In this document: positions 8,603-45,243 of the stretch, in pieces
How the letters are laid out: each line of letters opens with the position of its first letter
How positions within the stretch are numbered: position 1 is the stretch's first letter
Sequence record: OZ035793.1
Reading direction: 5' to 3' (one strand)
DNA: 45,509 bases
Source of the DNA: Veterinaerplatzvirus T145P1
Notes under the pieces: generated by a model
What the model was told of the DNA's origin: nothing
Database searches by the model: none
The model's input: the letters and a program-made list of their open reading frames with translations, nothing else
Translations under genes and position numbers: made by a program

Positions 8603-9259
8603 ATGGCTCATTTATCAAACGGCACTCAGGTGTTCGTAGAAGGCTCTCGCGGTAATGCGATTGACGTAACTGCAATTTCTAACGCAGTTACCCCCGTTTT
8701 AACTGTATCCGACGCTTCTGGTTTGGCCGTTGGTGATTACCTGCTTTTCACCTCTTCTGCCTCTACGCTTCTGGCTGACAAGCAAGTTCGAGTAACTGCA
8801 ATCACTGGTACGTCAGTAACTGTTGAAGGTATTGATACCTCCAGCACCACCAAGTTCCCGGCCGGTTTAACTGGTGAAGTTGTTAAAATCACCTCCTGGT
8901 TCGAAGTTCCGTGTGTTCAGGACGTATCTACTGACGGCGGCGAACAGCAGTTCGTTAACTTCCAATGTCTTTCTGATGACCGCGAGCAGCAGATTCCGAC
9001 TTATAAATCTGCGGTAACAAACACCTTTACCTTTGCTCATGAGTACACTAACCCGGTCTATCCGGTTCTGCGTAACTACGATGAGTCTGGCCAGGTTGTT
9101 GCAATTCGTCTGTTCGTACCTCGCGCCAGCGAAATGCGCTTGCAGTCCGGCACTATCGCTTTCAACGACACCCCTACAATTGGTGTTAATGAAATCGAAA
9201 CGGTATCCATCGCAGTATCCATTCGTGGGCGCCTATCCTCTGTGGCAGCAGAAGTTTAA
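8603..9259 (+). CDS. major tail protein (putative)
   Basis: 218 aa Thr/Val/Ser-rich protein, RBS aaggaaaa, followed by strong terminator 9266-9288; position before chaperone and tape measure. Confidence 0.55.
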   Translation: MAHLSNGTQVFVEGSRGNAIDVTAISNAVTPVLTVSDASGLAVGDYLLFTSSASTLLADKQVRVTAITGTSVTVEGIDTSSTTKFPAGLTGEVVKITSWFEVPCVQDVSTDGGEQQFVNFQCLSDDREQQIPTYKSAVTNTFTFAHEYTNPVYPVLRNYDESGQVVAIRLFVPRASEMRLQSGTIAFNDTPTIGVNEIETVSIAVSIRGRLSSVAAEV

Positions 9260-9265
9260 AGCGCA

Positions 9266-9288
9266 AACCCTCTTCGGAGGGTTTTTTA
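9266..9288 (+). terminator. intrinsic terminator (cUUCGg tetraloop)
   Basis: AACCCTC-ttcg-GAGGGTT plus T6. Confidence 0.75.
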
Positions 9289-9293
9289 TTGCA

Positions 9294-9336
9294 TAGCACT
9301 TTTTGCTAAAGCGGTTATTCAACTTTGCTGTATAGT
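9294..9336 (+). promoter_or_regulatory. composite promoter element
   Basis: ATAGCACTTTTTGCTAAA, 22 bp, TATAGTTA, then CATCGAAACGA leader. Confidence 0.55.
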
Positions 9337-9369
9337 TACCTCATCGAAACGAAATGAGAGATTAAAGAA

Positions 9370-9618
9370 ATGAATAACGTTAAAAACATCATCAAGCTCG
9401 CTGCGGTTCTGTTTGCTTTTTATGCGGTAGTTCAGATTGTAAACCCAACAGGTGAGGCTGATGCCAATAGCAAGGCAAACAAATATACTGTTGAATTTGC
9501 TAAGGATGAGCGAGCATGTCAGGAGCTTGTAGGTGGCAAAGTTGACCAAATCATGAAATACGGCAAAGAGGTTTGTAAGGACTCGGCTGCTAAGATTGCA
9601 AAAGAAAACACTAAGTAA
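9370..9618 (+). CDS. small secreted/membrane-anchored protein (moron)
   Basis: N-terminal hydrophobic signal-like segment, two Cys; own composite promoter element 9294-9336 with CATCGAAACGA leader; inserted between major tail and chaperone genes. Confidence 0.55.
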   Translation: MNNVKNIIKLAAVLFAFYAVVQIVNPTGEADANSKANKYTVEFAKDERACQELVGGKVDQIMKYGKEVCKDSAAKIAKENTK

Positions 9619-9656
9619 TAGAATACATACTCACAAACAATAAGAGGATTAACAAA

Positions 9657-9971
9657 ATGGCAAAGTTCAAACTTTCACTGGCAGCACTCCCAGACTTTAA
9701 GCTACCAGTAAAATTTAAGCTGGCTAACGACCAGGATGTAGAGGTTATCTTTACAGTCAAGCATAAGAAAACATCTGAGTTGCAGGAGCTGCTTAGCAAG
9801 GAAGACTTGAGCACAAAAGAGCTTATTATGGCAATTGCTTCTGATTGGGATCTGGAAGAAGAATACAACGAAGATAACGTTAATGAGTTCTCAGACCTTT
9901 TCCCGGCCTCAACTGTTGCACTGACAACTGCTTACATGCAAGCGCTTGCTGGTCAGCGAGTAAAAAACTAA
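9657..9971 (+). CDS. tail assembly chaperone (lambda gpG-like)
   Basis: 104 aa acidic protein immediately upstream of tape measure; ends in slippery heptamer A_AAA_AAC. Confidence 0.7.
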   Translation: MAKFKLSLAALPDFKLPVKFKLANDQDVEVIFTVKHKKTSELQELLSKEDLSTKELIMAIASDWDLEEEYNEDNVNEFSDLFPASTVALTTAYMQALAGQRVKN

Positions 9972-10291
9972 AACGAGCGGTGTATCTACAGTACCAGTCA
10001 GAGCCAACTGATGCCGAACTGGAAGCTATTGGGATGCGCCGCTCTGATTACGAAGATGAAGAGCCTGAGGTTTTACACTTCGACGACAACATGATGAAGG
10101 CGTGGGACATTTATTGTTCAATGGCTACGCAGTGGAGAGTAGGAGCCAATGGAGCTACAGGGTTAGATTACAACGTGCTAAATTTCCTCTTTAGAGTGTA
10201 TAATGTTTCTGAAGAAGAATTGGTACTCAGCGATTTACGCATCCTTGAAGCTAAGGCTCTTGAGATGATGGATAACCTGAGAAAAAAATAA
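9657..10291 (+). CDS. tail assembly chaperone frameshift fusion (gpGT-like), -1 frameshift at 9962-9968
   Basis: Heptamer a-aaa-aac (9962-9968) lies in the 0 frame just before the stop; the -1 frame is open from 9968 to 10291 and is the same frame as ORF 9980..10291. Confidence 0.6.
9962..9968 (+). other. -1 programmed ribosomal frameshift slippery site A_AAA_AAC
   Basis: Canonical X_XXY_YYZ heptamer in frame with codons AAA AAC, 1 codon before stop of the G-like ORF. Confidence 0.6.
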
Positions 10292-10312
10292 CCCGCTTCG
10301 GCGGGTTTTCTA
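10291..10312 (+). terminator. intrinsic terminator/attenuator
   Basis: ACCCGC-ttcg-GCGGGT plus TTTT. Confidence 0.6.
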
Positions 10313-10326
10313 TTATGGAGGCTTAG

Positions 10327-13308
10327 ATGGCAACAAATGAATTAGCCGGAATCACACTAGCCGTAGATGTTTCGCAAGTAGACAGGGGAACGCAATCCCT
10401 GCAAAAGTTCAGACAGGCAAACCAGCAAGCCGCTTCCGGTATTAGTGAATTCGTCAACGCTGAGCAGGTTGCTAAAAACCAGGCGAGAGATACGGCTCGT
10501 GCACTTTCTGAGCAGCAAGCGTCACTAGCTAAATTGCAAACAGCTATCGACCCAACTGCTGCAAAGTTCCGCAAGCTGCAAGAGGCAGCGGTGGGTCTTG
10601 ATAAGGCATTCGCTGCTGGCGTAGTTCCTGACGAGGAATTTTTCCGCTTAGGTGAGGCGCTAGAAACTCAAAACGCAAAACTTGCTCGTTCACGTGCGGC
10701 GCTAACTGAAGAGGGTAGGGCGGCAGCGCAGGCTGCAAAGGATAAGGCAAAAGCAAAGGCTGAAGCGGATAGATTCATTGCATCACTTGAGCGTCAGGCT
10801 CAAGCGGCAACATTGACGCGTGAGGAGTACTTAAAGTTACAAGCGGCCCAGCTTGGCGTTAGTTCTCAGGCAGCACCCATCATTGACAGAATCGCCGACG
10901 CATCACAGAAGGCAAACACCCAGTTAATTGCTCAGAGTAAGGCTTTTCAGAAATCAGGATTAAGCGCCGGGCAATACAAGAATGCCATATCTCAACTACC
11001 AGCGCAGATTACTGATATTGGCACGTCGCTTGCTGGTGGCATTCCGATTTGGCTTATTGCAATTCAGCAAGGTGGGCAGATCAAGGATGCATTTGGCGGC
11101 ATTGGTAACACCTTTAGATTCGCACTTGCAGCCTTAAACCCATTCAATGTAGCTGTTGGTGTTTTGGGTGGGGTACTTGTAGCTCTTGGTGTTGGTGCGG
11201 CTCAGGCTGAAAGTGAATTCAGAGCATTAAACTCTGCCATTGCATTTTCCAACAACTCTACAATCGCATCAATCTCGCAGGTTAGAGAGTTGGTTAGCTC
11301 TGTTTCTGATGCAACAGGTGCCACCAGAGGGCTTGTGACTAGCATCGCAACAAGCCTTATTGAGCAAGGGAACCTTACGCTGACGCAGATTGACAAGATT
11401 ACTAAATCGACCGCAAGATGGGCGCAGTTGACAGGCAAGGATGCGAAGGAAATTACTGGTTACTATAACCAGATTGCGAGCGACCCAATACAGGGATTGG
11501 TTGATTTGGATAAGCGCTTTAACTTCCTCACTCAGGGGCAGTTGACGACAATCGAAAACCTGAGAAAGACAAAGGGAGAGGTCGAGGCCGTTACCGCCGC
11601 AATTGACATTTTCAGCAAGTCGCAGGAAGCAAACCTTAACGACATAGCAGCGCAGTTAACTCCACTTGAGTTAGCCTGGAATGACTTTAGAAAGTACATC
11701 TCTGACATTTGGGATGCAATTAGCCGCAGAACGGTTGGGGCGCTAAACCTGTTTGTTGACGTAATTGCCGGAACAATTGAGCAGATCAGGGTCTTCATTA
11801 ACCAGGGTGACGTACTGATTGGTGAATTCGTAATTAGCGCAACGCAAGCGCTGCAAAACATTCCTGGTCTTGATGGTGTTGGTGATGACGTCATAAAGAG
11901 CCAGCAGAAGATTATCGATGCAGCCAAGAAGCAAAACCTTGAGCTAGAAAAGTCTATCAAGGAGCGCGATGCCAGAATAAGAGAAGGAGAACTTGGTTAC
12001 GTTACTCGCAGAGAAAATCAGAATACCAATGAGCAGTCAGGCACGGATGAGGAGTTTGCAAAAAGGAAGAAGGCGCTTCAGGATGAACTTGATGCGATCA
12101 AGAAGAACAGGAAAGAAGAAAATGGCAGGGTTAAAGAGCAAAGAGACCTTACAATTGGTTACGAATCTGGCGTACTGGCACTTCAGGCTCAACTCAAGGT
12201 TCTTCAGGAAAATAGGGATATTGGCGCAGTAATAAGTAATGAGCGCAAGCAGTATCTTCATGATGAAGCCAAATTCAGGATTCTTGAGCAGAGGCAGCTT
12301 GATGGTTCAATCACCAAAGAGCAGTCAAGACTTCTTCTTGAGAAGGATAAAGTCCTCGAATTGGCAAGGCAGAAGGCTGAACTTGGAGATCAGATTGTTT
12401 TGCAGGAGCGAGCCAATAAGTTAGCTGAAGATAACCGCAAGAAGATTCTTCAGATTAACAACGAAGCAAAAAACATTGATTTGGGGGCTGGTCTATCTTC
12501 TCGTGAACAACAGAGAGCCAAAGAGATTCAGGCTCTTCAGTCCAATCAGGTTAATGCTGGTGGCGCAATTGATGACGTGGATTTTCAGCAGCTTCTCGAG
12601 GCAAGACGTAACTTTTATGCTCAGGAAGATGCGTTACGTGAAAACTGGCTTGCTGGTGTGAACCAATCCTTTGCTAATTGGGCTGAGAGCGCGACGGATG
12701 CATTCTCAATTGCTGGAAGTTTAACCACCACAGTATTTGAAGGCATTACTGACCAGATTACTGACCTTGTAACAACTGGTGAAACTAACTTCAGAGAGTT
12801 CACTGTTAACATCCTTAAACAGATTGCTAAGATTGCGGCTCAGCTTCTTATTGTTAAGGCTATCGAGTCTAGTTTAAGTAGCTTTGGTGGTACTGGTGGC
12901 GCGATTGGCTCTATCGCATCTGCGATTGGTGGTGGATTCGCTAACGGTGGTTATACTGGTAATGGAGGGAAATACCAACCAGCAGGAACCGTACACCGTG
13001 GTGAGTTTGTATTCACAAAAGAAGCAACTAGTCGAATCGGTGTTAAGAACCTTTACGCTCTAATGAAAGGTTACGCAAACGGTGGTGTCGTTGGTGGTCC
13101 CTCTGGCTATGCAAATGGTGGCTTGGTTTCTGGAGGCACAGATGTTAATGTTAGTGGAATTACGGTTAACGTTAATAGTGGAATTGGAAGTGACCCAGAG
13201 CAGGCCAAGGCGCTGCAAAATGGCGTTAAGGCAATTGTAGCTGAAGAGATTTCTCAGTCTTTCCAGCAGGGTGGCAGAGCTTATCAGTACCTGCGCGGAT
13301 TTAACTAA
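10327..13308 (+). CDS. tail tape measure protein
   Basis: 993 aa, long Ala/Gln/Glu-rich coiled-coil N-terminal half, Gly-rich C-terminus; position after G/GT. Confidence 0.85.
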   Translation: MATNELAGITLAVDVSQVDRGTQSLQKFRQANQQAASGISEFVNAEQVAKNQARDTARALSEQQASLAKLQTAIDPTAAKFRKLQEAAVGLDKAFAAGVVPDEEFFRLGEALETQNAKLARSRAALTEEGRAAAQAAKDKAKAKAEADRFIASLERQAQAATLTREEYLKLQAAQLGVSSQAAPIIDRIADASQKANTQLIAQSKAFQKSGLSAGQYKNAISQLPAQITDIGTSLAGGIPIWLIAIQQGGQIKDAFGGIGNTFRFALAALNPFNVAVGVLGGVLVALGVGAAQAESEFRALNSAIAFSNNSTIASISQVRELVSSVSDATGATRGLVTSIATSLIEQGNLTLTQIDKITKSTARWAQLTGKDAKEITGYYNQIASDPIQGLVDLDKRFNFLTQGQLTTIENLRKTKGEVEAVTAAIDIFSKSQEANLNDIAAQLTPLELAWNDFRKYISDIWDAISRRTVGALNLFVDVIAGTIEQIRVFINQGDVLIGEFVISATQALQNIPGLDGVGDDVIKSQQKIIDAAKKQNLELEKSIKERDARIREGELGYVTRRENQNTNEQSGTDEEFAKRKKALQDELDAIKKNRKEENGRVKEQRDLTIGYESGVLALQAQLKVLQENRDIGAVISNERKQYLHDEAKFRILEQRQLDGSITKEQSRLLLEKDKVLELARQKAELGDQIVLQERANKLAEDNRKKILQINNEAKNIDLGAGLSSREQQRAKEIQALQSNQVNAGGAIDDVDFQQLLEARRNFYAQEDALRENWLAGVNQSFANWAESATDAFSIAGSLTTTVFEGITDQITDLVTTGETNFREFTVNILKQIAKIAAQLLIVKAIESSLSSFGGTGGAIGSIASAIGGGFANGGYTGNGGKYQPAGTVHRGEFVFTKEATSRIGVKNLYALMKGYANGGVVGGPSGYANGGLVSGGTDVNVSGITVNVNSGIGSDPEQAKALQNGVKAIVAEEISQSFQQGGRAYQYLRGFN

Positions 13309-28333: not shown

Positions 28334-30328
28334 ATGTTGCCTATCGAGAAGCTGGTTGCAAATTTCGATAAAGAAAGAATCAAACAGATTCAGAAAGACT
28401 ATCAGTTTGGAGAGATAACCCCTTACGAATTCCAGTGCGTGACATTTGATGCAATCGGAAAGGCTATTGGCAAGTACGAGGCACCATTTATCGCAGACCT
28501 TTCAGTATCTGCGGGTAAGACAATCATTCTTGCCATGATTGGTAAGCGCATGGAGCAGCTTGGGCTTCCCTATATGGTTCTCTCTCGCCAGTCAGAGATT
28601 ATCAGCCAGAACTCAGAAGAGCTTCGTAATTTCGGCATACGTAATAGCGTCTATTGCGCTGGCCTTAACGTCAAATCAGTTTACTACCCAACTATAGTGG
28701 CCAGTGAGGGTACGGCAGCCAACGGCTTGTTTAAGGGGCTTGGTGACTATGTTCCGGCAGTTATCGCTATAGATGAGTGTCACATGGTCGATCACATGGA
28801 TATCGTGGAGGCTGAAGAGAATGAAGAAACATTTGAGCAAATGAGCACAAAGAAAGGCGATATGGTTTTTAAGGATGGCGTAAACACAGGATTGCTTGGT
28901 ACTGGTCGTGCGCAGTACACGCTAATTATCACCGAGATGAAACGTCGTTGTCGTGAGAAGTACGGGCGTGAGCTTCGTATATTCGGTCTTACTGGCAGCC
29001 CGTATCGTAACAACGATCATATCGTCGTTAGCAACCCAAACATCCGTGGATTCTGGCGCAAAACAGTGATTCAGGTGCCAACAAATTATCTGGTTGATTT
29101 GGGCTTCGTTGTTCCTACTGTTTATGGTGAAGTTGGTGACCTGGGTTATGACCTTAGTGAGTTTGCGCCAGACGGAAGCGATGGCGTTAAAGACTTCAGC
29201 AAGAAAGAAATGGATGCAATGGCTGCAAAGATTCACGACAACCAATCAATGACCCAAAAGATAATGGGTTTTGTTGTGAAAATACTCGAGACTCGTAACG
29301 CTGCATTGGTAACATGCGCTGGCAAACTCCATTGTGATGAGGCTGCTGCGGCACTACCAGATGGATACCCTTACGCCATCATCACAGACTCTACGGGAGA
29401 GAGGAAGCGCAGGGAGATTCTGGCTGATTGCCAGACAGGTAAGTACAAAATAATATTCCAGATTGGTTGTCTTACTACGGGCGTAAACCAGCCGCTGTGG
29501 GATACTAGCGTCATACTACGCAAGATTGGCAGCCTAACGCTTATGATTCAGCTTCTTGGTAGGGGGATGCGCAAACTTAAGAGATCTCATATTGATGCTG
29601 GTTTTCATAAAGAAGATCACCTTGTGCTGGATTTTGCTGGCGCACTTGATGATATGGCTGAGCTTTACTTTGACCCAATTATTGAAGAGATTCAGGCTGA
29701 GAAGTTTAAATCCTCAAGAAAAGGTGGCGATGAGGTTCGTCAGTGTCCGCAATGTGGATATGAAAATTCCCCATTCGCTCGTCGCTGTAGCAATAAGATT
29801 GATGGCGTTAGATGCGATCACTTCTTTCAGTTCACAATTTGCGAAGACATTACCGACGCGCAAACTAAATCGGTAATTAAAAAGGGTTGTGGCGCTCGCA
29901 ATGACATAGCAGCAAAGGTTTGCAGGGAATGCGGCGAGATGCTTAAAGACCCAAATGCTAACCTGACTGGCAAAATGTATCGTCGTGGTGATTACCTTCG
30001 TGTTTATGATTTTCAAGTTGGGTTAAGTAAGAATCAGACAGGCATTGTAGTTAAGTACAATATAATGGCTCATAACGGAGAGAGATTTAACGCTTGGGAG
30101 TTCTTTAATCCAGAATCAGACCATCGAGTTTGCAGTGTGCTCTGGAAGAACTTTTGCTTAGCTCATATTGAGAATCGCACGGAAGCGGCACGAATTGGCA
30201 GGCTTAAAAATGCCAGAATGATTATGACTAACGTAGATAAGTTCCGTGCGCCAGTTCAGGTTACGCATCGCCGGAATGCAAAAGGAAAGGACGTGATAGC
30301 GTTTAAGAATTTTGGAGAATTATTATGA
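28334..30328 (+). CDS. SF2 DNA helicase with C-terminal zinc ribbons
   Basis: Walker A SAGKT, DExH-like DECH motif, C-terminal CxxC pairs. Confidence 0.8.
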   Translation: MLPIEKLVANFDKERIKQIQKDYQFGEITPYEFQCVTFDAIGKAIGKYEAPFIADLSVSAGKTIILAMIGKRMEQLGLPYMVLSRQSEIISQNSEELRNFGIRNSVYCAGLNVKSVYYPTIVASEGTAANGLFKGLGDYVPAVIAIDECHMVDHMDIVEAEENEETFEQMSTKKGDMVFKDGVNTGLLGTGRAQYTLIITEMKRRCREKYGRELRIFGLTGSPYRNNDHIVVSNPNIRGFWRKTVIQVPTNYLVDLGFVVPTVYGEVGDLGYDLSEFAPDGSDGVKDFSKKEMDAMAAKIHDNQSMTQKIMGFVVKILETRNAALVTCAGKLHCDEAAAALPDGYPYAIITDSTGERKRREILADCQTGKYKIIFQIGCLTTGVNQPLWDTSVILRKIGSLTLMIQLLGRGMRKLKRSHIDAGFHKEDHLVLDFAGALDDMAELYFDPIIEEIQAEKFKSSRKGGDEVRQCPQCGYENSPFARRCSNKIDGVRCDHFFQFTICEDITDAQTKSVIKKGCGARNDIAAKVCRECGEMLKDPNANLTGKMYRRGDYLRVYDFQVGLSKNQTGIVVKYNIMAHNGERFNAWEFFNPESDHRVCSVLWKNFCLAHIENRTEAARIGRLKNARMIMTNVDKFRAPVQVTHRRNAKGKDVIAFKNFGELL

Positions 30329-45150: not shown

Positions 45151-45227
45151 GGCTCGAGTGGCGAAAGTGGATATCGCAAGAGACTTCTAATCTCTAGATT
45201 GCTGGTTCGAATCCAGCCTCGAGCGCC
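45151..45227 (+). tRNA. tRNA-Arg (anticodon UCU) with encoded CCA
   Basis: Hand-folded cloverleaf: 7-bp acceptor GCTCGAG/CTCGAGC, U8, 4-bp D stem GCGA/TCGC, D loop with GG, 5-bp anticodon stem AGAGA/TCTCT, loop CTTCTAA, 5-nt variable loop, T arm GCTGG-TTCGAAT-CCAGC, discriminator G, CCA. Confidence 0.85.
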
Positions 45228-45243
45228 AATCAAGGAGTTCATT

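What the first reader, a model, noticed from the sequence alone, without database searches (positions are those of the whole stretch)
9657..10291. Programmed -1 frameshift joining the tail chaperone ORFs
The G-like ORF ends with the canonical slippery heptamer A_AAA_AAC at 9962-9968, one codon before its stop. The -1 frame is open from 9968 to 10291 and is the frame of ORF 9980..10291, which lacks an ATG (GTG at 9980) and an obvious RBS. This matches the conserved G/GT chaperone frameshift found upstream of tape measure genes in long-tailed phages.
Basis: partly seen in the sequence, partly recalled or inferred. Interest (0 to 1): 0.5.

Follow-up and report, generated by a model that had tools for sequence, protein, structure and literature searches.

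The report
Tail chaperone G/GT frameshift site
This is the ordinary, already recognised ribosomal -1 frameshift that lets a T1-like phage make a short and a long form of its tail-assembly chaperone from two adjoining genes, here followed by an unusually strong RNA hairpin.

Summary
ORF1 (9657-9971, 104 aa, Pfam Phage_TAC_4) ends with an in-phase A_AAA_AAC (9962-9968) directly followed by its TAA stop. The -1 frame is open from 9887 to 10288 and encodes a DUF1799 domain. A slip gives a 211-aa fusion. The pair lies between the tail tube gene and the tape measure gene of a T1-like phage (Drexlerviridae).

Comparison of about 60 related loci supports ribosomal frameshifting:
- The heptamer-plus-stop arrangement is kept down to 47% protein identity.
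- A 27%-identical Neisseria prophage has G_GGA_AAC_TGA at the same place.
- The codons right after the heptamer (L-K-R-A-V) vary synonymously in the -1 frame.
- The GTG at 9980 is GTT, GTC or GTA elsewhere, so it is an internal valine codon, not a start.

One point is new. Six nt downstream lies a 70-nt stem-loop (9975-10044, -34 kcal/mol), the most stable 72-nt window on the + strand. It has no covariation support.

The frameshift is already noted for T1-like phages in genome announcements. It is annotated as a joined CDS in phage OzMSK (91.5% identical). Verdict: a real, textbook feature that is already known. Interest is low. No experiment has been done on this phage.

The parts
9642..9648 (+). 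Shine-Dalgarno sequence (AAGAGGA) of the chaperone gene G
   Evidence: Read from the sequence. It lies 8 nt before the ATG at 9657.
9657..9971 (+). Gene G: tail assembly chaperone, 104 aa, the product of standard decoding
   Evidence: ORF list. Pfam PF08748 Phage_TAC_4, E 6e-33, full length. phrog_569 and phrog_17368 positions 1-107.
9962..9968 (+). Slippery heptamer A_AAA_AAC, in phase with G
   Evidence: Conserved in the window clade, the T1 clade and metagenomic relatives. Replaced by A_AAG in the Rogunavirus clade and by G_GGA_AAC in a Neisseria prophage at the same position.
9969..9971 (+). TAA stop codon of G, directly abutting the heptamer. In the -1 frame these bases are read as part of CTA-AAA.
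   Evidence: TAA or TGA in relatives, which is CTA or CTG (Leu) in the -1 frame.
9975..10044 (+). 70-nt stem-loop that starts 6 nt after the heptamer: candidate frameshift stimulator. Its 5' arm contains GTG 9980 and its 3' arm contains ATG 10034.
   Evidence: MFE -34.3 kcal/mol, z -5.3 to -5.7 against shuffles. Rank 1 of 22,719 72-nt windows on the + strand. Weaker on the opposite strand, -25.6. Kept in all members of the clade. No compensatory changes seen.
9968..10291 (+). T segment: -1 frame coding region (107 codons plus stop), translated only as the C-terminal part of GT
   Evidence: Pfam PF08809 DUF1799, E 5.5e-16. phrog_17368 positions 109-210. Third-position-dominated variation from the first codon after the heptamer.
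9657..10291 (+). GT fusion: join(9657..9968, 9968..10291), 211 aa, ...QRVKN-LKRAVYLQ...
   Evidence: Inferred. A joined CDS of the same length, 635 nt, is annotated in phage OzMSK.
10290..10307 (+). Terminator-like hairpin plus T-run between the chaperone pair and the tape measure gene
   Evidence: T1 has an annotated terminator at the equivalent place.
8603..9259 (+). Context: tail tube (major tail) protein gene
   Evidence: Pfam Phage_tail_3, E 6e-68. phrog_584.
10327..13308 (+). Context: tape measure protein gene, 993 aa
   Evidence: Pfam TMP_2 and Tape_meas_lam_C. phrog_24.

Best explanation
This is a programmed -1 ribosomal frameshift of the lambda G/GT type in the tail-assembly chaperone genes of a T1-like siphophage. 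Most ribosomes translate G (9657-9968) and stop at TAA 9969, giving the 104-aa chaperone. A minority slip back one base on A_AAA_AAC. At that point tRNA-Lys sits on AAA 9963-9965 and tRNA-Asn on AAC 9966-9968, and they re-pair with AAA 9962-9964 and AAA 9965-9967. These ribosomes read on from CTA 9968 and make a 211-aa GT protein that carries the DUF1799 'T' domain. The stem-loop 9975-10044, 6 nt downstream, most likely slows the ribosome over the heptamer and raises the slip rate of a heptamer that is weak in E. coli. It also buries GTG 9980 and ATG 10034. By analogy with lambda, many G and few GT molecules coat the tape measure protein, and the T domain recruits the tail tube protein. Shown here: the anatomy, its conservation, coding selection in the -1 frame, and the predicted stability of the hairpin. 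Inferred: that slippage happens, its rate, the stimulatory role of the hairpin, and the assembly function.
For: (1) Anatomy: an in-phase heptamer abuts the stop, and the -1 frame is open for 107 codons.
(2) Families and synteny: Phage_TAC_4 followed by DUF1799, between the tail tube and tape measure genes. phrog_17368 spans both ORFs.
(3) Conservation: AAAAAAC plus TAA or TGA is found at the end of G in relatives down to 47% identity. In T1-clade locus L060 the -1 frame opens only 28 nt before the stop. In a 27%-identical Neisseria prophage it opens only 16 nt before, and there the site is G_GGA_AAC_TGA. Of 24 DUF1799 representatives whose called ORF reaches far enough upstream, 14 read KKL or GKL at the junction. 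That fits X_XXA_AAC_U.
(4) The first codons after the heptamer are translated in the -1 frame: CTA/CTG, AAA/AAG, CGA/AGG/CGC/CGG, GCG/GCA/GCT/GCC, GTG/GTT/GTC/GTA. L-K-R-A-V-Y-L is nearly invariant while the flanking sequence diverges by 40-50%.
(5) No conserved start: GTG 9980 is GTT, GTC or GTA elsewhere, ATG 10034 is CTA, CTC or TTA in the T1 clade, and there is no SD.
(6) The hairpin is the most stable 72-nt window of the + strand, lies at 6-nt spacing and is stronger on the sense strand. The T1 clade has a different compact hairpin at 7 nt that ranks in the top 0.2-1% locally.
(7) A_AAA_AAC is a proven -1 site in E. coli (IS1). It is of low efficiency, which suits a low GT:G ratio (PMC4066793; lambda ratio 30:1, PMC5009743).
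(8) The frameshift is annotated as a joined CDS in phage OzMSK and is mentioned for T1-like phages Stevie and Skenny.
Against: There is no protein-level or reporter evidence for this phage, nor in anything I found for T1-like phages. The hairpin has no covariation support. Within the clade the changes are one-sided or disrupt a pair, and the core pairs of the T1-type hairpin never vary. The reduction of synonymous variability in paired positions is marginal (4/17 against 100/195, p = 0.04), and T as a whole varies less than G. Several lineages keep the slip site without any evident hairpin: the Rogunavirus clade, the L041/48/49/51 group and L066. A stimulator is therefore not a family-wide requirement. 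A_AAA_AAC is a poor shifter in E. coli (PMC4066793). The OzMSK annotators thought T may also have its own RBS.
Confidence: 0.9

Rival explanations
1. Two separate genes. ORF2 is translated on its own from GTG 9980, possibly by termination-reinitiation after the TAA 8 nt upstream, and no fusion protein is made.
For: A GTG is present at 9980, and in some clade members GAGGG precedes it. The OzMSK record says 'also has independent RBS'. Most gene callers call T as a separate ORF.
Against: The GTG is GTT, GTC or GTA in other clades, so no start codon is kept there. The four codons before it, which lie after the G stop, evolve as L-K-R-A in the -1 frame, including CGA to AGG. The SD-like bases lie only 2 nt from the GTG. 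The GTG is paired inside a -34 kcal/mol stem. The next start kept in all clades would drop the invariant SDYEDEEPE segment.
Confidence: 0.04
2. Transcriptional slippage. RNA polymerase adds one A in the A6 run, and the resulting mRNAs have G and T in one frame.
For: A homopolymeric A6 run sits at exactly the right place. One deposited relative, 2725-N35, differs by one A in this run, which shows that the run is prone to length errors.
Against: Known productive slippage in bacteria uses longer runs, about 8-9 or more (general knowledge; discussed in PMC5009743). The Rogunavirus clade has only AAAGG here, and the Neisseria homologue has GGGAAAC. These are ribosomal slip motifs, not polymerase slippage tracts. 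The 6-nt-spaced hairpin is a feature of ribosomal frameshift cassettes.
Confidence: 0.04
3. The slip happens elsewhere in the overlap, for example at T_TTC_CCG 9899-9905, and not at A_AAA_AAC.
For: The -1 frame is already open from 9887, and T_TTC_CCG is in phase.
Against: That heptamer is absent from most clade members. In T1-clade and Neisseria relatives the -1 frame opens only 28 or 16 nt before the stop. G residues 78-104 evolve under G-frame constraint. The phrog_17368 profile joins G and T at positions 107/109.
Confidence: 0.02

Closest known systems
Phage lambda G/GT tail assembly chaperone frameshift (Levin 1993; Xu, Hendrix and Duda 2004, 2013, 2014, as summarised in PMC5009743)
   Same: There are two ORFs between the major tail and tape measure genes. 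A -1 slip near the end of the first gives a longer fusion protein. The expected level is low, and the proteins are expected to be chaperones that do not end up in the virion.
   Different: The heptamer is A_AAA_AAC, not G_GGA_AAC or lambda's G_GGA_AAG, and it abuts the stop codon, so there is no dual-coding overlap. The protein families differ (Phage_TAC_4 plus DUF1799). A very stable hairpin follows 6 nt downstream. From my own knowledge, unchecked here, lambda needs no such downstream structure.
Chaperone frameshift of T1-like phages (Drexlerviridae), as annotated in phage OzMSK (PQ659294) and mentioned for Stevie (PMC4319613) and Skenny (PMC6763657)
   Same: The genes are homologous, with the same heptamer and the same junction. 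OzMSK is 91.5% identical over 9300-10400 and carries a joined CDS of the same length.
   Different: Nothing essential differs. The nearest records (Veterinaerplatzvirus T145P1, 99.7%) are unannotated. T1 RefSeq, C119 and PCEc3 annotate two separate ORFs. None of the papers I read describes the downstream hairpin.
IS1 insA-insB' frameshift
   Same: It uses the same A_AAA_AAC heptamer, a proven low-level -1 site in E. coli (PMC4066793).
   Different: It is an unrelated transposase gene, and no stimulator has been established for it. Here a strong hairpin follows the site.
E. coli dnaX and IS911/IS3-type -1 frameshift cassettes
   Same: They also combine a lysine-codon slippery heptamer, a short spacer and a downstream stem-loop.
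   Different: Those use A_AAA_AAG, and dnaX and IS911 also have an upstream SD-like enhancer. No SD-like element lies 10-14 nt upstream here.

Membership tests
G/GT-type tail assembly chaperone frameshift of long-tailed phages | Two adjacent ORFs between the major tail (tube) gene and the tape measure gene | tested here: met
   Order is 8603-9259 tube, 9657-9971 G, 9968-10291 T, 10327-13308 tape measure. One extra 82-aa ORF (9370-9618) lies between the tube gene and G.
G/GT-type tail assembly chaperone frameshift of long-tailed phages | The second ORF is in a shifted frame, open across the end of the first, and lacks conserved initiation signals of its own | tested here: met
   The -1 frame is open 9887-10288. 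The GTG is not conserved as a start and there is no SD.
G/GT-type tail assembly chaperone frameshift of long-tailed phages | A slippery sequence in the overlap, conserved in position among relatives | tested here: met
   A_AAA_AAC, A_AAG or G_GGA_AAC at the last codons of G across relatives of 27-98% identity.
G/GT-type tail assembly chaperone frameshift of long-tailed phages | The first ORF belongs to a tail assembly chaperone protein family | tested here: met
   PF08748 Phage_TAC_4, E 6e-33, 114 bits against a cut-off of 21.
G/GT-type tail assembly chaperone frameshift of long-tailed phages | Both G and GT are made at a fixed low GT:G ratio, both are needed for tail assembly, and both are absent from virions | not testable with these tools
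   This needs proteomics and genetics. The lambda values come from PMC5009743.
Canonical -1 PRF cassette (heptamer, spacer, downstream structure) | X_XXY_YYZ in the 0-frame phase | tested here: met
   A_AAA_AAC at 9962-9968.
Canonical -1 PRF cassette (heptamer, spacer, downstream structure) | A stable structure that begins about 5-9 nt after the heptamer | tested here: met
   The stem starts at 9975, a spacer of 6 nt. MFE -34.3 kcal/mol, rank 1 of 22,719 windows.
Canonical -1 PRF cassette (heptamer, spacer, downstream structure) | The structure is supported by compensatory base changes | tested here: inconclusive
   No compensatory pairs within the clade. T1-type hairpin: 6 of 12 pairs never vary, and the scores do not exceed shuffles.
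Transcriptional slippage site | A long homopolymer run, about 8-9 nt or more, conserved as a run | tested here: not met
   The run is A6 only. It is replaced by AAAGG or GGGAAAC in relatives.

The most novel reading that the evidence does not exclude
The 70-nt stem-loop 9975-10044 may be a lineage-specific frameshift stimulator that replaced the compact GGCGG/CCGCC hairpin of the T1 clade. Across Drexlerviridae, slip-site strength and stimulator strength would then trade off. Weak A_AAA_AAC or G_GGA_AAC sites mostly come with a strong hairpin, and the stronger A_AAG site of the Rogunavirus clade comes with none. This would keep the GT:G ratio constant. The hairpin would also hide GTG 9980 and ATG 10034, so that T is made only by frameshifting.
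Probability: 0.45. Interest if true: 0.35.

Novelty: already known. Interest (0 to 1): 0.15.

Why it matters
For this genome the practical value is correct annotation. The pair should be annotated as G plus join(9657..9968, 9968..10291) GT. It should not be two independent ORFs, and neither product is a 'tail length tape measure protein', the label that PHROG-derived annotation gives them. The same correction applies to T1 RefSeq and to many Drexlerviridae records. Biologically the case adds little beyond a clean example. It does suggest that phage lineages reach the same low GT:G ratio with different combinations of slip site and RNA structure. That idea could be tested with simple frameshift reporters.

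Tried and rejected
- Rfam scan of 9600-10400: nothing near a gathering score, so no known frameshift element matches.
- PDB sequence search with the GT profile: no relative with a solved structure.
- NCBIfam: no family.
- The search for homologous proteins with the fused protein returned a single hit, a T-like ORF of 123 aa, so it gave no view of how often fusions are annotated.
The T segment alone was searched instead.
- Covariation tests of both hairpin types gave no support.
- An upstream SD-like enhancer of the dnaX type: none at 10-14 nt.
- The alternative heptamer T_TTC_CCG 9899-9905 was rejected because it is not conserved.
- The genome-wide second candidate at 29705 was rejected as a shadow ORF.
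- Structure prediction was not run. The Pfam assignment was already decisive.

Full report
**What the window is.** Positions 9300-10400 are 99.7% identical to unannotated records of Veterinaerplatzvirus T145P1. They are 90-97% identical to many E. coli siphophages of the family Drexlerviridae, the T1-like phages. Around the finding the genes follow the lambda-like tail module order:
- tail tube protein, 8603-9259 (Pfam Phage_tail_3, E 6e-68);
- a small 82-aa ORF, 9370-9618;
- ORF1, 9657-9971;
- ORF2, 9980-10291;
- tape measure protein, 10327-13308 (TMP_2 and Tape_meas_lam_C);
- homologues of lambda M, L, K, I and J.

**Check of the observation.** The last codons of ORF1 are GTA AAA AAC TAA, with the stop at 9969-9971. 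A_AAA_AAC at 9962-9968 is therefore in the X_XXY_YYZ phase and directly abuts the stop.
- The -1 frame is open from 9887 to the TAA at 10289-10291, and it is the frame of the GTG at 9980.
- A -1 slip gives 104 + 107 = 211 aa.
- ORF1 and the tape measure gene have good Shine-Dalgarno sequences: AAGAGGA 8 nt before the ATG, and GGAGG 5 nt before it. The GTG at 9980 has only GAG 2 nt upstream.
- The heptamer alone is not enriched in the window, with 12 copies against 12.9 expected.
- The arrangement is unique. Of all stop-free stretches of at least 80 codons on both strands, only this site and one shadow ORF inside a 664-aa gene combine an in-phase X_XXW_WWZ with a -1 frame that runs at least 60 codons past the stop.

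**Protein families.** ORF1 is a full-length match to Pfam Phage_TAC_4, a phage tail assembly chaperone family (E 6e-33). The -1 frame product matches DUF1799 (E 5.5e-16). PHROG 17368, a profile of 213 positions, matches ORF1 at positions 1-107 and the -1 product at positions 109-210. The profile therefore spans both ORFs, which suggests that fused proteins exist among the annotated phage proteins it was built from.

**Comparative evidence for the frameshift.** I collected about 60 related loci from viral, metagenomic and genome collections.
- *Conservation of the site.* AAAAAAC followed directly by TAA or TGA ends the G gene in the window clade, in the T1 clade (about 58% protein identity, including T1 itself) and in metagenomic relatives down to 47% identity.
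- *Limits on where the slip can occur.* In T1-clade locus L060 the -1 frame opens only 28 nt before the stop. In a 27%-identical prophage of Neisseria musculi it opens only 16 nt before the stop. There the last codons are GTG GGA AAC TGA, that is G_GGA_AAC, a different canonical heptamer at the same position.
- *Distant family members.* Of 24 DUF1799 representatives whose called ORF reaches far enough upstream, 14 read KKL or GKL in the T frame at the expected junction. That is what X_XXA_AAC followed by a U-initial stop would give.
- *Coding selection after the heptamer.* The codons right after the heptamer lie beyond the G stop, yet they evolve as coding sequence in the -1 frame: CTA/CTG (Leu), AAA/AAG (Lys), CGA/AGG/CGC/CGG (Arg), GCG/GCA/GCT/GCC (Ala), GTG/GTT/GTC/GTA (Val). 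The peptide L-K-R-A-V-Y-L is nearly invariant while the rest of the proteins diverge by 40-50%. In the 22 codons from the slip site to the first in-frame ATG, the variable columns at codon positions 1, 2 and 3 number 10, 6 and 18.
- *No conserved start codon.* The GTG at 9980 is an internal valine codon. The next candidate, ATG 10034, is CTA, CTC or TTA in the T1 clade.
- *What this implies.* The invariant SDYEDEEPE segment can reach the ribosome only through G.

**A downstream hairpin.** Six nt after the heptamer a 70-nt stem-loop (9975-10044) is predicted at -34.3 kcal/mol, with z -5.3 to -5.7 against dinucleotide shuffles.
- It is the single most stable of 22,719 72-nt windows on the + strand of the whole 45.5-kb window. 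The mean is -12.7 and the sd 4.4.
- The opposite strand folds less well (-25.6, z -2.5), because four pairs are G-U. This fits an mRNA structure.
- All sequenced members of the clade keep the structure.
- The T1 clade and most metagenomic relatives have a different, compact hairpin (GGGCGGUU...AACCGCC) that starts 7 nt after the heptamer. It is -16 kcal/mol with z -5.0 and ranks in the top 0.2-1% of local windows.
- The Neisseria prophage has yet another long hairpin.

The evidence for these structures is thermodynamic and positional only.
- Within the window clade the few changes in paired positions are one-sided or disrupt a pair. The drop in third-position variability is marginal, 4/17 against 100/195, p = 0.04.
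- For the T1-type hairpin, 6 of 12 pairs never vary, and the covariation measures do not exceed shuffles.
- The Rogunavirus clade (JK06, C119, phiKP26), the L041/48/49/51 group and L066 show no comparable hairpin.

**Mechanism.** The best explanation is a -1 tandem slip of tRNA-Lys and tRNA-Asn on A_AAA_AAC. It produces GT at a low level beside the abundant G.
- A_AAA_AAC is the proven -1 site of IS1 in E. coli. Together with G_GGA_AAC it is described as a low-efficiency heptamer there. A_AAG is the most shift-prone tetramer (PMC4066793).
- A low rate fits lambda, where G:GT is about 30:1 and the ratio matters for tail assembly (PMC5009743).
- The hairpin probably raises the rate of the weak heptamer and also occludes GTG 9980 and ATG 10034. 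That role is inferred.
- The assembly function is inferred from lambda and from the Pfam family: G and the G part of GT bind the tape measure protein, and T recruits the tail tube protein.

**Rivals.**
- *Independent initiation or reinitiation at GTG 9980.* This is contradicted by the loss of that start codon in other clades, by -1 frame selection on the four codons before it, by the lack of a usable SD and by its burial in the stem.
- *Transcriptional slippage.* This is unlikely for an A6 run. It also cannot explain the AAAGG and GGGAAAC variants.
- *A slip at T_TTC_CCG 9899-9905.* This is excluded by the lack of conservation of that heptamer and by the narrow -1 windows in relatives.

**What is already known.**
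- The conserved chaperone frameshift of long-tailed phages is textbook (Xu, Hendrix and Duda 2004, cited in PMC5009743).
- For T1-like phages it is mentioned in the genome announcements of Stevie (PMC4319613) and Skenny (PMC6763657).
- It is annotated as a two-part joined CDS, 'frameshifted product of tail assembly chaperone', in phage OzMSK. OzMSK is 91.5% identical, has the same heptamer, and its joined CDS has the same 635-nt span.
- Many other records, including T1 RefSeq, C119 and PCEc3, still annotate two separate ORFs. T1's second ORF is called only from an internal ATG (55 aa), which leaves 150 nt unannotated.
- I found no experimental demonstration for any T1-like phage, and no description of the downstream hairpin in the papers I read.

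**Verdict.** The feature is real but ordinary and already known for this phage group. Interest is low (0.15). The only mildly new points are two: the hairpin is the strongest predicted structure in the genome, and the combination of slip site and stimulator seems to differ between lineages. That hypothesis can be tested with reporters.

Noticed in passing
L003 (MN840485.1, Escherichia phage 2725-N35), locus 2160-2215: This close relative has five A's instead of six at the slip site. G therefore runs on to 117 aa as annotated, and T lies in the +1 frame. It is probably a homopolymer sequencing error. If real, it would need a different recoding event.
   Followed up: partly
L012-L015, L017 (Rogunavirus clade: JK06, C119, phiKP26, AKS96) and L067, about 10 nt before the G stop: G ends GCA_AAG_GTC_TAA, or GCA_AAG_CCC_TAA in L067. 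There is no canonical heptamer, only the A_AAG tetramer, and no stable downstream hairpin. Clade member L016 has AAAAAAC. This suggests a single-tRNA-Lys slip in this lineage.
   Followed up: partly
L068 (Neisseria musculi NZ_JBHRZW010000015.1), locus about 1495-1600: A prophage homologue of 27% identity has G_GGA_AAC_TGA at the end of G. Its -1 frame opens only 16 nt before the stop, and a -37 kcal/mol hairpin starts about 13 nt downstream.
   Followed up: partly
L064 (T1 RefSeq NC_005833, 18872-19506): The type phage T1 has the same AAAAAAC_TAA and a compact hairpin, but it is annotated without a frameshift. ST39 starts at an internal ATG (55 aa), which leaves 150 nt of conserved coding sequence unannotated. 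ST40 and ST39 are both named 'tail length tape measure protein', a mislabel that the PHROG descriptions share.
   Followed up: partly
window 9370-9618 (+), with 9265-9284 and 9596-9624: An 82-aa ORF with a hydrophobic N-terminus (phrog_22925, function unknown, no Pfam hit) sits between the tail tube gene and G. A terminator-like hairpin precedes it, and a promoter-like site lies just before G. T1 has no gene at this position. It looks like a moron-type insertion.
   Followed up: no
window 10282-10326 (+): T itself ends with an in-phase A_AAA_AAA (10282-10288) before its TAA, followed at once by the terminator hairpin 10290-10307. A -1 slip there would add only 12 codons and stop at TAG 10324-10326, just before the tape measure ATG and in that gene's frame. 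It is not conserved in the T1 clade, so it is probably chance.
   Followed up: no
window 45152-45228 (+): A tRNA-Arg gene (anticodon TCT) lies near the right end of the window. It has no bearing on the Lys/Asn slip site.
   Followed up: no
L066 (NZ_VSMK01000220.1) and L067 (JABUUR010000187.1): Contigs that encode T1-like chaperone pairs, one 46.7 kb long (about phage genome size), sit in assemblies labelled Nitratidesulfovibrio liaohensis and Fibrobacter MAG. They are most likely contaminating or mis-binned enterobacterial phage sequence.
   Followed up: no
L069 (ENA ERZ27336856 NODE_101157, 811 nt, coverage 2.6), locus 173-793: A 206-aa ORF carries Phage_TAC_4 and DUF1799 in one frame and has no slippery site. 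About 10 codons are missing at the end of G. It is either a natural in-frame GT fusion or an assembly error in a very low-coverage contig.
   Followed up: partly
window 29705-29711 (+): An in-phase T_TTA_AAT in a 106-aa ORF (29556-29876) with a long open -1 frame looks like a second frameshift candidate. The ORF is only a shadow of the 664-aa gene 28334-30328.
   Followed up: yes
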